Shown here: positions 6,060 through 43,765 of the stretch, in pieces
Position numbering within the stretch: position 1 is the stretch's first letter
How the letters are laid out: each line of letters opens with the position of its first letter
Origin: Octopus sinensis
Lineage: Eukaryota
DNA length: 47,716 bases
Assembly (NCBI RefSeq): GCF_006345805.1
Contig: NW_021834488.1
Span: 1 to 47,716 of the forward strand
Direction: 5' to 3'
The notes under the pieces: model-generated
Told to the model about the DNA's origin: nothing
Database searches by the model: none
What the model saw: only the letters and a program-made list of their open reading frames with translations
Position numbers and translations under genes: made by a program

Positions 6060-6383
6060 ACTCCCTTCGGTCATGAATGACCATGGGATTGCACCTAGAA
6101 AGTTATCCTCCTAGACACAAGTCCGGGCAAGGTTGTTTATGGAAGGCCAGCAGTCGCCCATGCATACCAGCCTCCCCTCTCCACGCCACCAGTGTTATCC
6201 AAGGGAAAAACAAAGTCGATACAGCTTGGCACCAGTGACGTCGCAGCTCATTTCTACAGCTGAGTGAACTGGAGCAACGTGAAATAAAGTGCCTTGCTCT
6301 AGAACACAACACGCAGCCCGGTCGGGATTCGAGCTCACAACCTCACGATCGTAAGCTCGACGCTCTACCACTGAGCCATGCGC
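6059..6383 (-). mobile_element. SINE family B with long alternative 3' tail
   Basis: Reverse complement of 44859-45190; sits in (TA)n. Confidence 0.85.
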
Positions 6384-6987: not shown

Positions 6988-7030
<43 letters not shown>

Positions 7031-7143
7031 GTAAGATATATAAATATATATATAATATATATATATATACGTATGTATATATTATGTATATATATATATA
7101 CGTATGTATGTATATATATATAATATGTATATATATATATATG

Positions 7144-7174
<31 letters not shown>

Positions 7175-7198
7175 GTATACATAATATATTATATATAT

Positions 7199-7264
<66 letters not shown>

Positions 7265-7457
7265 AATATATATATATATATATATAATAAATATTAGGGA
7301 ATAAATCCAAATTACAGGGAAAAAATCAGTTTAGGATAAATCCAATTTATAGTAAAATATTATAAAATATTATTAGAGACAAAACCACTATTTTGCAAAA
7401 CAAACAAGGAAAGACTTAATCAATACATAAAATTTTAATAAATAGTCAAAAAAACCG

Positions 7458-7498
7458 CCACTACAATGTTTCTTGTCTTATCGACAATCTTCAGGTGG
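7458..7498 (-). ncRNA. Minimal hammerhead ribozyme (left arm)
   Basis: Minus strand CCAC-CUGAAGA-UUGUC(gauaa)GACAA-GAAA-CAUUG-UA-GUGG. Confidence 0.7.
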
Positions 7499-7545
7499 AC
7501 TTCCAATAAGTCAGTTTCATAATTTGAAACTGACTTATTGGAAGT

Positions 7546-7587
7546 CCACCTGAAGATTGTCGTCAAGACAAGAAACAATTGTAGTGG
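7546..7587 (+). ncRNA. Minimal hammerhead ribozyme (right arm)
   Basis: CCAC-CUGAAGA-UUGUC(gucaa)GACAA-GAAA-CAAUUG-UA-GUGG: full core, stems I and II, palindromic stem III; predicted cleavage after 7583. Confidence 0.8.
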
Positions 7588-7879
7588 CGGTTTTTTTTGA
7601 CTATTTATTAAAATTTTTATGTATTGATTAAGTCTTTCCTTGTGTTTTGCAAAATAGTGGTTTTGTCTCTAATAATATTTATATTATATATATATATTTA
7701 TGTATGTATATATATACAAACAAATGTATCCAAGTTAACATGAATGTCTTATTAAAACACCGAATATTAAGTGTGTGTGTGTGTGTGTCTGTTTTATATA
7801 TATAGCAAGAGTTTCATACATACATGGATAAATACCACTTTCAGCTTTAATAACAGAGTGTCATTTGCAATCTGGATTC

Positions 7880-15924: not shown

Positions 15925-16310
15925 GGGAGTATAACTCCAAACTTACAGGGAAAAATTCAATTTAGTATTAAATCAAATTACACAATATAAATATATAATA
16001 TATATAAATTAGAGAAAAACCACTATTATGTAATTCAAACAATGATAGGCATAAAGCAAATCATAAATAAAAAATAAAATATATTATAAAACATATAACT
16101 AGATCACAAAAAGTACAAAAAAATGAATAAACAATATATAAGTGATAAGTATACTTATCATATACTTATTATATACTGTTTATTCATCTTTTTGTACTTT
16201 CTGTGATCTAGTTATATGTTTTATAATATATTTTATTTTTTCTTTATGATTTGGTTTATGTCTGTCATTGTTTGAATTGCATAATAGTGGTTTTTCTCAA
16301 ATTTTTATAT
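15923..16310. repeat. Asymmetric long inverted repeat (arms about 16001-16140 and 16170-16310), related to 7294-7680
   Basis: Diverged inverted arms; left extension TAGGGA...TCCAAA..TTACAGGGAAAAA..TCA.TTTAG and ATTAGAGA.AAAACCACTATT are shared with the 7.3-kb element. Confidence 0.85.
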
Positions 16311-17337
16311 ATATATATATATAAAGTAATTATGGGCTACAAGTCATCCAATATAATTACTAATACTTTCTTTCCAAACATGCAATTCAGCAGACCGTGT
16401 CATTTATTTAACCCTACTTTAAAAATTATTAAAGAAGAAAAGCTGTGCGTTTCTGCGTCTGTTCGCTAAGTTTTCATATCTTCAATTTTACTAATTTTCG
16501 CATCATTAGCATTTGTAACTCATTGCTTTATTTTGAAGAAATAACTGAGTAAAAAGAAATTGCTAAATAGTTGACAGAATCGTCATAGCATCTGGCCAAA
16601 CGCCCACGCTTTTCAATTAGGACTGTTTTACACTCTGTGTCTAACTCTTGCCGAGGTCAGCTTTGGTCTTCATCGATCCGCAGTCGATACTTTAAAGTAC
16701 CATTCATGTAGCTGAATTGATTTAATATTCATATAAATCGTCCTTGAATTATAACTGAACAATCAGACGTTGCCTAATAGATATACAGACTGATAAATAT
16801 ACATAAAGATAAACACAGACAGAGAGAGTGAGAGAAAGGAGAGGAGGGAAAGAGAGTACAATTATGCAACTATTATCTGTGTTAGACCTGCGGGTACTAG
16901 TTAAAGAAACTTAGTTGCAGATAGTCATTACATTCCAGTATTCCAGACACCATTGAATTCTTTTTCTTTATTTTTTTTCCTTTCATACGTCATACTTAGG
17001 TTTCTAGTTATAAAATAGTAGTAATTACAAAGTAGACTCACAAAACTTCAACACAGGCTCGTGTGTGTGTGTGTGCGTGCGTGCGTGCATGAGTGTATGT
17101 ATGTGAGAGTGGTATGTAGAGAGGGGAGGGAATATGTGCGTATGTGTATGTATGTGTGTGTGTTTGTGAGTGTGTGTGTTTGCGTGTGTTTGTGTGTCTG
17201 TGCGTGTGTGAGTGTGCAAACGGATGACAAGAAAGGAACACAAAAGATTTTACAAATATATTTTTTTAACATTATAAATGTACAAGGCGGCGAGCAGGTA
17301 GAATTGGGCATACAGGTTATATTATTGGGGAGGAGCA

Positions 17338-27212: not shown

Positions 27213-28274
27213 TTAAGGGACATTTTGCTTTGAATTGAAAAAAATCATAAAACAAACACAGAAACTCACACTATCCAGTTCTCTCGTTCTTACCGGACCC
27301 TGAGGTTCCATTAGTACAGACTTTCTACATTCCACAAAAAGTTGATGTTCTGAAGTTGTCAGTATTGGTCCATCCATAATACTTCCCGTTGGTTGTAATG
27401 TTTCTGTAAAAGGGATTTCCAACGTTGATGGTACATCCAGAACTCCCAATGTTCTTTCCCCAGTAGTTTCCAAACATTCGACTAATGACAAAACGGCAGA
27501 TTCAGTAGTTAACGATTCTTCCGGTACTTGATGAGTTAAGTCGTCCCGTTGGTCATAGGAATTTTCCTCGGTCATAGATTCTGGAAATTCTTGCGTCATT
27601 GAATTTGCTTCTGTAAGGTCATCTAAAGATCCAATTGTTTCCATGTCTTCTAAGAAAGTTTCTGATACTGAAATCGTAGGATCGGTCGGTTCCATCAATT
27701 CTTCTGAAATGGACAATGCAAGTTCTTTATCTTCCGTATTACACGCTTCTTCGTCATTTTCTGAAGGTTCAAGATCATTATCCGGACAGTCTGGACATAC
27801 TGGATATTCCGGGCATTCCGGGCATTCCGAGCATTCAGGGCATTCAGGGCATTCGGGGCACTCAGGGCATTCGGTGCATTCCATTGTAGTTGAGTTCAAA
27901 GGGCTCGTTTCTTCTAGTGATTCCGATGATTTCGAACCCAAACTTGGGCGACTTGGTGATTTAGGTGTTGGACAAAATTCCGATTCCATCGAACCCAAAC
28001 TTGGGCGATTTGGTGATTTAGGTGTTGGACAAAATTCCGATTCCATCGAACCCAAACTTGGGCGATTTGGTGATTTAGGTGTTGGACAAAATTCCGATTC
28101 CATCGAACCCAAACTTGGGCGATTTGGTGATTTAGGTGTTGGACAAAATTCCGATTCCATCGAACCCAAACTTGGGCGATTTGGTGATGTAGGTGTTGGA
28201 CAAAATTCCGATTCCATCGAACCCAAACTTGGGCGATTTGGTGATTTAGGTGTTGGACAAAATTCCGATTCCAT
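27213..28274 (-). CDS. 353-aa acidic low-complexity ORF with 6x19-aa repeats and CPE repeats; probably exon 1 of a spliced gene (donor likely after 27270)
   Basis: About 1 kb open in a stop-rich genome, about 600 nt of it non-repetitive; codon third-position variation in the CPE repeat; in-frame GTGAGT donor at 27269-27264 where protein composition changes. No recognisable family. Confidence 0.65.
   Translation of the reverse strand: MESEFCPTPKSPNRPSLGSMESEFCPTPTSPNRPSLGSMESEFCPTPKSPNRPSLGSMESEFCPTPKSPNRPSLGSMESEFCPTPKSPNRPSLGSMESEFCPTPKSPSRPSLGSKSSESLEETSPLNSTTMECTECPECPECPECPECSECPECPEYPVCPDCPDNDLEPSENDEEACNTEDKELALSISEELMEPTDPTISVSETFLEDMETIGSLDDLTEANSMTQEFPESMTEENSYDQRDDLTHQVPEESLTTESAVLSLVECLETTGERTLGVLDVPSTLEIPFTETLQPTGSIMDGPILTTSEHQLFVECRKSVLMEPQGPVRTRELDSVSFCVCFMIFFNSKQNVP
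27781..27883 (-). repeat. 9-bp coding repeat (Cys-Pro-Glu)n
   Basis: About 11 degenerate units encoding MECTECPECPECPECPECSECPECPEYPVCPDCPD. Confidence 0.9.
27933..28274 (-). repeat. 57-bp coding minisatellite, 6 copies
   Basis: Unit ATGGAATCGGAATTTTGTCCAACACCTAAATCACCAAATCGCCCAAGTTTGGGTTCG, nearly identical copies. Confidence 0.97.
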
Positions 28275-28533
28275 CGTTAGAGATTATCGCTTATTATGTT
28301 AAATTAAATTATTGTTGTTTTTAATCTACTTTTTTGCCCTTTGTCCCTTGATAAAATTTGTCGAGTTTTCGCAGTTAATTCAGAAGTGTCGCCCCGACAG
28401 ATATGCTAACGATTATCTAAATTAGGAACGGAGTACAGGAGCCGCAGTCAATGTGCGCTGACTGTCGGCCACGACTGACAACCGCACATGGTGTACCTAC
28501 CTATTTCGGTGTATGTAGATGTGTAGCTAAGTT

Positions 28534-43284: not shown

Positions 43285-43765
43285 AAAATGAGATAGGGTT
43301 GTAAATTCAACCCTCCATGGGATAACATATATCCAATATACTGCTAGAGAGGTACCCAACAAGACTAATACATAAATGTTAAAAATTGCGGTGCAATTAA
43401 TTCATCCACTGTATTATGTGGGCAAGGGTAAAATTATTACCGTAAATTAATAATACAAAATGAGAAAATGGAGAAACATACCTAAATCAATCATCAACCA
43501 TCAGATAACACCCAATCAATACTTTATTAAACCATTACACAACAGCAATGACATTATACATAATATATTACAAATATAACTAGACATAGAAATAGAAATA
43601 GAAAATACAATTACTTTCTATTTCTATTTCTATGTCTAGTTATATTTGTAATATATTATGTATAATGTCATTGCTGTTGTGTAATGGTTTAATAAAGTAT
43701 TGATTGGGTGTTATCTGATGGTTGATGATTGATTTAGGTATGTTTCTCCATTTTCTCATTTTGTA
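43285..43765. repeat. Asymmetric perfect inverted repeat (151-bp arms 43454-43604 and 43615-43765) with left extension
   Basis: Arms appear identical by eye, 10-nt loop, about 170-bp unpaired extension, (TA)n flanks. Confidence 0.95.

What the first reader, a model, noticed from the sequence alone, without database searches (positions are those of the whole stretch)
7294..7680. Long palindrome carrying a hammerhead ribozyme on each strand, inside (TA)n
Seen: about 155-bp inverted arms around a 5-nt loop. Each arm holds CCAC-CUGAAGA-stem II-GAAA-CA(A)UUG-UA-GUGG, so a transcript of either strand has one hammerhead. Established: Penelope-like elements (PLEs) carry minimal type I hammerheads with palindromic stem III in their pLTRs, thought to cleave as dimers, and often leave inverted pLTRs on insertion. 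Inference: this is a coding-free PLE footprint or non-autonomous element. Read-through RNA could alternate between a long dsRNA hairpin and a ribozyme fold.
Basis: partly seen in the sequence, partly recalled or inferred. Interest (0 to 1): 0.85.

Follow-up and report, generated by a model that had tools for sequence, protein, structure and literature searches.

The report
Spliced Penelope mRNA-end palindromic insertions
This palindrome is two back-to-back DNA copies of the intron-free front end of a Penelope-type jumping gene's RNA, one of hundreds in this genome, and such copies likely show that these elements copy sense, spliced RNA twice at one landing site, which bears on an open question about how they move.

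Summary
Observation confirmed: inverted arms (94%) around a 5-nt centre, one type I hammerhead per strand, inside (TA)n. The left arm has an extra ~80-nt tail.

The arms are the 5' end of a Hydra-clade Penelope-like element (PLE) with its ~1.8-kb GT-AG intron removed exactly. The parent (RT plus GIY-YIG) is in the same genome. Exact-match counts: 662 spliced arms, 1151 intron-retaining.
- 64 of 68 spliced arms stop in exon 1; 40 of 40 intron-retaining donors run upstream.
- Paired arms are nearly always one long plus one short (111 of 116) and never mix splice state (0 of 32; 12 expected).
- Either arm may be the truncated one, which argues against simple fold-back.

Best model (inferred): two reverse-transcription starts on one sense, spliced RNA, primed from both target strands and joined head to head. 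This contradicts a published antisense-template proposal for these copies and suggests why PLEs seem to keep introns. The proposed hairpin/ribozyme switch is unsupported. Cleavage is untested and there are no RNA data.

The parts
6988..7283 (.). (TA)n target array, left flank
   Evidence: TRF array 6988-7294; arm end at 7284
7284..7519 (-). Long arm: spliced mRNA 5' end, unit +12 to +253 (+1 = inferred transcription start)
   Evidence: alignment to natural spliced copy L097
7284..7360 (-). PLE 'tail' (~80 nt, only on the long arm); holds a predicted 13-bp hairpin; lies between the two inferred RT start sites
7458..7498 (-). Type I minimal hammerhead, predicted cut after 7462
7507..7508 (-). 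Exon 1 / exon 2 splice junction in long arm
7516..7528 (.). Centre: natural 4-bp inverted repeat at the RNA 5' end used as microhomology; the 5-nt spacer 7520-7524 belongs to the short arm
   Evidence: sequence
7516..7685 (+). Short arm: spliced mRNA 5' end, unit +3 to about +172, no tail
7536..7537 (+). Exon 1 / exon 2 splice junction in short arm (about 1.8-kb GT-AG intron absent)
7546..7587 (+). Type I minimal hammerhead with palindromic stem III, predicted cut after 7583
7686..7716 (.). TA-rich right flank
   Evidence: sequence

Best explanation
The palindrome is a head-to-head pair of DNA copies of the spliced 5' end of a Hydra-clade Penelope-like retrotransposon, likely made when the element's enzyme primed reverse transcription twice on one sense RNA, once from each cut strand of a (TA)n target. 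Shown: exact intron loss, 5' ends confined to exon 1, one long plus one short arm, matching variants in both arms, parent element in the genome. Inferred: the protein nicks both target strands; one 3'-OH starts at the outer site (+253) and the other at the inner site (+172); both run to the RNA 5' end, the outer one displacing the inner cDNA or stalling at it; the two cDNA ends are joined by 1-4 nt microhomology. Because RT starts internally, priming in the promoter-proximal pLTR of a spliced mRNA can give only ~250 nt. Priming in the downstream, read-through pLTR, whose intron stays unspliced, gives the long intron-bearing copies. The mini copy is probably dead; read-through would give a long dsRNA hairpin, not a ribozyme.
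For: Splice: 33 of 47 exon-1 ends in L091-L127 are followed by GTRAGT, and in 6 cases an AG acceptor follows 1810-1843 nt later; the other 14 carry the exact junction. A +4 alternative donor is used at 3 loci, and sequence variants are shared by spliced and unspliced copies. 5' boundary: 64 of 68 spliced arms stop in exon 1 (the 4 exceptions are one locus); 40 of 40 donors extend upstream (39 by regex, L308 by eye). One template: 0 mixed of 32 head-to-head pairs on C1, 12 expected; site 65 discordant in 1 of 69 pairs, 33 expected. Two primings: 111 of 116 pairs are long+short. Solo short and solo long arms both occur, 10 each among the 76 non-intron arms. The long arm is the more truncated in 9 of 29 pairs, and in 3 it starts at +153, +174 or +178, so it cannot have templated the short arm. 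In the window the short arm keeps the more complete 5' end. In vitro an anole PLE cuts and extends both strands, and its two RT starts bracket the tail (PMC11167929).
Against: No RNA evidence: the start site is inferred from copy ends and an Inr-like motif (consensus recalled). In 19 of 29 pairs the two starts are within 15 nt, which fold-back also predicts. One-sided deletions after insertion could mimic truncated long arms. The 9-versus-1 asymmetry is biased, because short arms had to contain the anchor. Arm concordance could also come from homogenisation after insertion. A cap-derived 5' G is inconclusive: 13 of 17 arms have one, but most are explained by partner microhomology. Several counts include tandem duplicates of one locus.
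Confidence: 0.68

Rival explanations
1. Same spliced sense template, but one cDNA folds back on itself, self-primes the mirror arm, and the endonuclease trims it at the inner site.
For: Arms share variants and splice state. The RNA 5' end has a natural 4-bp hairpin that forms the window's centre. 19 of 29 pairs are near-symmetric. Self-priming and EN-mediated resolution are the published readings (PMC3846280; PMC8557442).
Against: Fold-back from the long cDNA cannot give a short arm more complete than the long arm (9 of 29 pairs, and the window itself), tail-only partners (3 of 29), or solo short arms. Fold-back from the short cDNA cannot make the tail.
Confidence: 0.2
2. A non-autonomous mini-element (retrozyme- or MITE-like) that lost the intron once and is copied as a unit, palindrome included.
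For: Hundreds of ~97-99% identical copies with fixed ends. Some centres recur 5-6 times. One locus has a spliced junction with upstream promoter sequence (L097). Non-autonomous PLE derivatives are known (bioRxiv 10.64898/2026.07.22.740005).
Against: 42 distinct centres among 61 counted, with the same centre in different subfamilies. Variants are shared with intron-retaining copies and an alternative donor is used, which implies repeated splicing. Spliced copies lack the upstream promoter region and are not head-to-tail arrays.
Confidence: 0.07
3. Antisense template with self-priming, as hypothesised to explain head-to-head repeats and intron retention.
For: Head-to-head geometry and 1151 intron-retaining arms fit the proposal (PMC3846280 Discussion).
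Against: 662 arms lack the intron exactly, in head-to-head pairs; an antisense RNA is not spliced at sense GT-AG sites. It could hold only for the intron-retaining class, or through antisense transcripts of already spliced copies.
Confidence: 0.03
4. Assembly artefact (long-read fold-over palindrome).
For: The window is a whole small contig with many single-base indels. Raw reads were not examined.
Against: Defined long/short asymmetry, different flanks, varied centres, and the same structure on many large contigs.
Confidence: 0.02

Closest known systems
EN+ Penelope-like element insertions with inverted pLTR and tail (PMC8557442 passages; PMC3846280 passages and Discussion)
   Same: Head-to-head inverted copy, tail on one end only, hammerhead in pLTR, 5' UTR intron, AT-rich target.
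   Different: Here a large class has the intron removed exactly and ends at the inferred start site. Those papers stress intron retention, call its significance unknown, and propose an antisense template. The tail is ~80 nt rather than 30-40.
Hydra clade PLEs, incl. Hydra-1_Obim (PMC8557442 section 11; supplement rows)
   Same: C-terminal GIY-YIG, DKT, CxCX5C linker, CxxC and CxH motifs, YRDD, sense hammerhead, (TA)n target.
   Different: Different family by eye (other hammerhead and protein sequence). The unit is 5.6-7.4 kb because of a long 3' UTR and a 1.3-1.8-kb intron. A clear pLTR is present, where Hydra-1_Obim is listed as 'no pLTR'.
PAc (Anolis Poseidon) in vitro mechanism (PMC11167929, parts 1-2 of 4)
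   Same: Two internal RT start sites bracketing the tail, in a stem-loop; AT-rich target; both strands extended.
   Different: PAc sites lie inside the ORF; here both lie in the 5' UTR, with the ATG ~55 nt after the tail. In the parts I read, that paper does not treat spliced genomic copies or explain inverted pairs.
L1 twin priming (recalled, no call)
   Same: Both target strands prime on one RNA, giving an inversion joined by microhomology; the tail-only pairs look like this.
   Different: Here most second cDNAs re-copy the same sequence, giving a palindrome, and both start sites are fixed.
Non-LTR retrozymes (PMC7229834 passages; bioRxiv 10.64898/2026.07.22.740005 parts 1-2 of 5)
   Same: Short, non-coding, type I hammerhead, PLE-related.
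   Different: Those are head-to-tail repeats with circular RNA intermediates; this is a head-to-head pair starting at the promoter, not at the cut site.

Membership tests
EN+ Penelope-like element | Parent ORF with PLE-type RT and C-terminal GIY-YIG endonuclease | tested here: met
   L092 and L358 fragments show YRDD, PMG, VYKC..YIGST; 52 homologs, best E 2e-45. Pfam gave no significant hit on our fragments; RVT_1 hit homolog P0021. ORFs are frameshifted.
EN+ Penelope-like element | pLTR direct repeats flanking the ORF | tested here: met
   L358: acceptor+hammerhead at 113 and 5692 around the ORF; L092 at 683 and 8122
EN+ Penelope-like element | Inverted 5'-truncated copy and one-sided tail | tested here: met
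   111 of 116 pairs long+short
EN+ Penelope-like element | Spliceosomal intron in the 5' UTR | tested here: met
   GTRAGT donor and AG acceptor
EN+ Penelope-like element | Intron retained in genomic copies | tested here: not met
   Not met by this copy or by 662 arms; met by 1151 arms of the family
EN+ Penelope-like element | Target-site duplication | not testable with these tools
   96 of 100 arm ends run into TA-like sequence, which hides TSDs
Hydra clade | DKT motif, CxCX5C linker, CxxC and CxH in EN, (TA)n target | tested here: met
   Read by eye in translations against section 11
Hydra clade | N-terminal RWK motif | tested here: inconclusive
   Ours reads RIKWK; homologs P0002 and P0006 read RMRWK and RMRWR
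Hydra clade | RT phylogeny within Hydra | not tested
   No tree built; compared by eye with supplement proteins
Minimal type I hammerhead | Core CUGANGA/GAAA/UH, stems I and II, palindromic stem III allowing a dimer | tested here: met
   Cofold gives the dimer with an 8-bp intermolecular stem III, and the A/G variant keeps it by G-U pairs. The sister family keeps the core with different stems.
Minimal type I hammerhead | G10.1-C11.1 pair | tested here: not met
   Stem II closes with U-A here; G-C in 1 of 3 sister copies shown, G-U in 2
Minimal type I hammerhead | Self-cleavage | not testable with these tools
   Indirect only: 27 of 100 arms start at +78 to +103, just past the cut at +71/72, with no spike at the site itself
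Non-LTR retrozyme | Head-to-tail tandem units each with a hammerhead | tested here: not met
   Spliced arms are solo or head-to-head
Non-LTR retrozyme | Circular RNA intermediate | not testable with these tools
   No RNA data obtained
MITE | Fixed unit with symmetric terminal inverted repeats | tested here: not met
   Asymmetric ends; 42 distinct centres among 61 counted

The most novel reading that the evidence does not exclude
The genome records the PLE cycle in vivo. A two-active-site complex reverse-transcribes one sense RNA from two fixed starts and both target strands, and this twin priming is the general source of PLE inverted pLTRs and tails. Intron 'retention' is positional: the promoter-proximal intron is spliced (giving 250-nt stumps), while the copy in the downstream read-through pLTR is not (giving all full-length copies). 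A third class of stumps begins just past the hammerhead and marks in vivo cleavage or a ribozyme block to RT.
Probability: 0.5. Interest if true: 0.82.

Novelty: new variant of a known kind. Interest (0 to 1): 0.63.

Why it matters
PLEs are the closest retroelement relatives of telomerase. Why they keep introns and how they make inverted repeats and tails is described as unresolved (PMC8557442; PMC3846280). Hundreds of exactly spliced, start-site-bounded, head-to-head copies show that a sense, spliced RNA is a template in vivo. They also give a natural data set that separates twin priming from fold-back, and a specific testable reason for intron retention. Each insertion also leaves a near-perfect palindrome that would give long dsRNA when read through; in Drosophila such Penelope repeats yield siRNAs (PMC3681739 passages).

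Tried and rejected
- Rfam: no hammerhead family listed; the miRNA-like hits are hairpin effects below cut-off.
- Monomer hammerhead fold: not favoured in any context, 2.7-4.5 kcal/mol above MFE; removing exon 1 makes little difference, so a splice-controlled switch has no support.
- Sharp pile-up at the cut site: not found. There were 34 matches for AT-flanked starts near it (30 inspected). By eye 7 of 100 listed rows start at +72 and 6 at +73 (113 matches), with truncations also upstream (about 19 of 100 listed rows, 181 matches).
- Cap-derived G: inconclusive.
- Pfam on parent fragments: nothing significant.
- No PLE ORF in the window.
- Expression: no RNA holder listed and no reads were laid, so it is open.
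- Literature searches showed no listing on spliced genomic PLE copies or PLE twin priming; none of the 20 papers listed held 'twin priming'. Subscription papers (Arkhipova 2003, 2006; Evgen'ev and Arkhipova 2005), Repbase and most supplements were not seen and may bear on novelty.
- PMC13282606 and PMC9977147 (passages) had nothing on this.
- Look-ups by place and by sequence in earlier findings gave nothing relevant.

Full report
Observation. The window holds an inverted repeat over 7357-7689 (318/339 identical, E 8e-141) around a 5-nt spacer at 7520-7524, between TA arrays. A type I hammerhead lies on each strand (+7546-7587, -7498-7458); 0 of 100 shuffles give a match. The left arm continues about 80 nt beyond the palindrome, to 7284. 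The two 5' ends meet at the centre.

Family. The window is all of G000:C10959, in a 2.72-Gb genome. An exact 31-mer from near the arms' 3' end occurs 2655 times. The unit is about 254 nt with two 3' ends: short (about +172) and long (+253, with the tail). 96 of 100 sampled ends run into TA-like sequence. The microsatellite load resembles octopod genomes as I recall them; no call established the organism.

Parent element. Some copies continue past the tail into an ORF. L358 has the canonical layout: acceptor and hammerhead, tail, ATG, RT, endonuclease, 3' UTR, promoter, exon 1, intron, acceptor and hammerhead, short end, (TA)n. The frameshifted ORF shows DKT, YRDD, CxCX5C, YIG, CxxC and CxH. 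These match the Hydra clade description (PMC8557442 section 11), and the RT fragment finds 52 homologs. A cephalopod Hydra family is listed in that paper's supplement, but differs by eye. No tree was built.

The arms are spliced. In long copies the first 23 nt of the unit are followed by GTRAGT (33 of 47 exon-1 ends in L091-L127). An AG acceptor follows 1810-1843 nt later in 6 measured cases and 1050 nt in one. The other 14 ends, and both window arms, join exon 1 straight to the base after the AG. Exact counts are 662 spliced junctions, 1151 acceptors and 257 donors; these patterns differ in length and miss variant copies. A single ancestral deletion is unlikely. The 65A/G variants and an exon-1 variant occur in both spliced and intron-retaining copies, and 3 loci use a donor shifted by 4 nt.

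Two RNA sources. Of 68 spliced arms from the first 69 places, 64 stop within exon 1; the 4 that go upstream are one locus. All 40 donors examined (the first 40 of 257) run upstream, 39 by regex and L308 by eye; some of the 40 belong to one insertion. I infer a start site at +1, at an Inr-like motif (consensus recalled). Spliced copies then come from the promoter-proximal pLTR, and intron-retaining copies from the downstream, read-through pLTR. With internal RT initiation (PMC11167929, parts 1-2 of 4), priming in the first pLTR can give only a 250-nt stump, while full-length copies must start in the second. That would explain intron retention without an antisense template. PMC3846280 (Discussion) proposed such a template; PMC8557442 (passages) calls the significance of retention unknown.

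How the mirror arm arises. 111 of 116 head-to-head pairs are one long and one short arm, 1 is long+long, and 4 have an undefined end; the set has a few duplicated loci and is enriched for spliced copies. On C1, from 32 spliced and 100 acceptor positions, 32 pairs formed: 24 both unspliced, 8 both spliced, none mixed, against 12 expected. Site 65 disagrees between arms in 1 of 69 pairs (33 expected) and site 21 in 1 of 52 (17 expected). So both arms derive from one template, or were homogenised later. Centres vary: 42 types among 61 counted, a few loci counted twice, and the same type appears in different subfamilies. The palindrome is thus built at insertion.

Fold-back versus twin priming. 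Among 29 short arms with a long partner in the first-100 sample, the long arm is more truncated by over 15 nt in 9, the short arm in 1, and 19 are within 15 nt. Three long arms start at +153, +174 and +178; 19 of 29 junctions overlap by at least 1 nt. The 9:1 ratio is biased by the anchor, but these cases cannot come from fold-back off the long cDNA, and neither can the 10 solo short arms or the window's own centre. Twin priming on one RNA explains all classes and fits the in vitro cutting and extension of both strands. Against it: symmetric pairs fit fold-back equally well, and deletions after insertion are not excluded.

The hammerhead. The monomer fold is not favoured (stem I probability 0.04 or less). 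Two copies cofold into the dimer with an 8-bp stem III, kept by G-U pairs in the variant, as described for PLE hammerheads (PMC4209133 passages). A sister family, represented at window 15925-16325 and 78% alike over the 3' part, keeps the core with different stems, which suggests selection on the motif in parent elements.

Copy starts near the hammerhead. In the first 100 arms on C1, starts fall as follows: 34 spliced at +21 or before, 7 at +22 to +30, 24 intron-retaining (one reassigned by eye), 3 at +31 to +71, 0 at +72 to +77, 27 at +78 to +103 (8 from one tandem cluster) and 5 beyond. In the sister family 12 of 20 top-scoring copies start within -1 to +18 of the cut. There is no spike at the cut itself. 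Cleavage followed by trimming and RT stalling at the fold or the U-run both remain possible.

The proposed switch. In the palindrome itself the antisense arm is always transcribed first and the hairpin is -231.9 kcal/mol, so a hairpin/ribozyme switch is implausible. Long dsRNA is the expected product (compare PMC3681739 passages).

Limits. No RNA or raw-read evidence was obtained (one search listed no RNA holder; no reads were laid). Samples come mostly from C1 and C2.

Papers seen. PMC8557442: passages, outline, section 11 and supplement rows. PMC11167929: parts 1-2 of 4. bioRxiv 10.64898/2026.07.22.740005: parts 1-2 of 5. PMC3846280: passages and Discussion. PMC2377424, PMC4209133, PMC7229834, PMC3681739, PMC13282606, PMC9977147: passages only. 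L1 twin priming is recalled. Nine searches listed nothing on spliced genomic PLE copies, but key subscription papers and Repbase were not seen.

Verdict. Inverted pLTR insertions with a hammerhead and tail are known. The spliced, start-site-bounded class, and what it implies for template polarity, intron retention and mirror-arm synthesis, make this a new variant of a known kind. Identity about 0.93, mechanism 0.68, interest 0.63.

Noticed in passing
window 15925-16325: Second long+short palindrome of a sister PLE family (78% alike over the 3' part; 1955 first-look candidates). Longer copies carry a type I hammerhead with a ~77-nt stem II and palindromic stem III; this copy starts about 14 nt after the cut site.
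   Followed up: partly
window 43454-43765: Third palindrome, 154-nt arms, 99% complementary, 4-nt spacer, one end at (TA)n; no clear likeness to the finding's family. Possibly another PLE stump.
   Followed up: no
L097:3693-5586 (G000:C1 ~119.99 Mb): Only locus seen with the spliced junction plus upstream promoter sequence, as a duplicated inverted pair; suggests rare splicing of read-through RNA.
   Followed up: partly
L234, L238, L259: Exon 1 joined with 4 extra nt (alternative donor at +4); in L234 and L238 those 4 nt no longer begin with GT.
   Followed up: partly
L092:2600-2920; L358:1710-2200: Asparagine-rich low-complexity stretch between RT thumb and EN linker, like the N-rich inserts reported in rotifer Penelope ORFs (PMC3846280).
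   Followed up: no
L092:5098-5290 and 6136-6310: Promoter plus exon 1 plus donor is duplicated about 1 kb apart in many long copies, and decayed promoter-like repeats lie inside the intron.
   Followed up: no
L074:967-1905: Four head-to-tail 266-nt units spanning +114 to the ORF start, next to an inverted spliced short arm; may reflect repeated template jumps.
   Followed up: no
L067:300-1620: Inverted pair starting at the acceptor position around a ~930-nt unrelated palindromic insert.
   Followed up: no
window 27932-28276: 57-nt tandem repeat, 6.1 copies, 98% matches, next to a 9-nt repeat at 27806-27882; period divisible by three, possibly coding.
   Followed up: no
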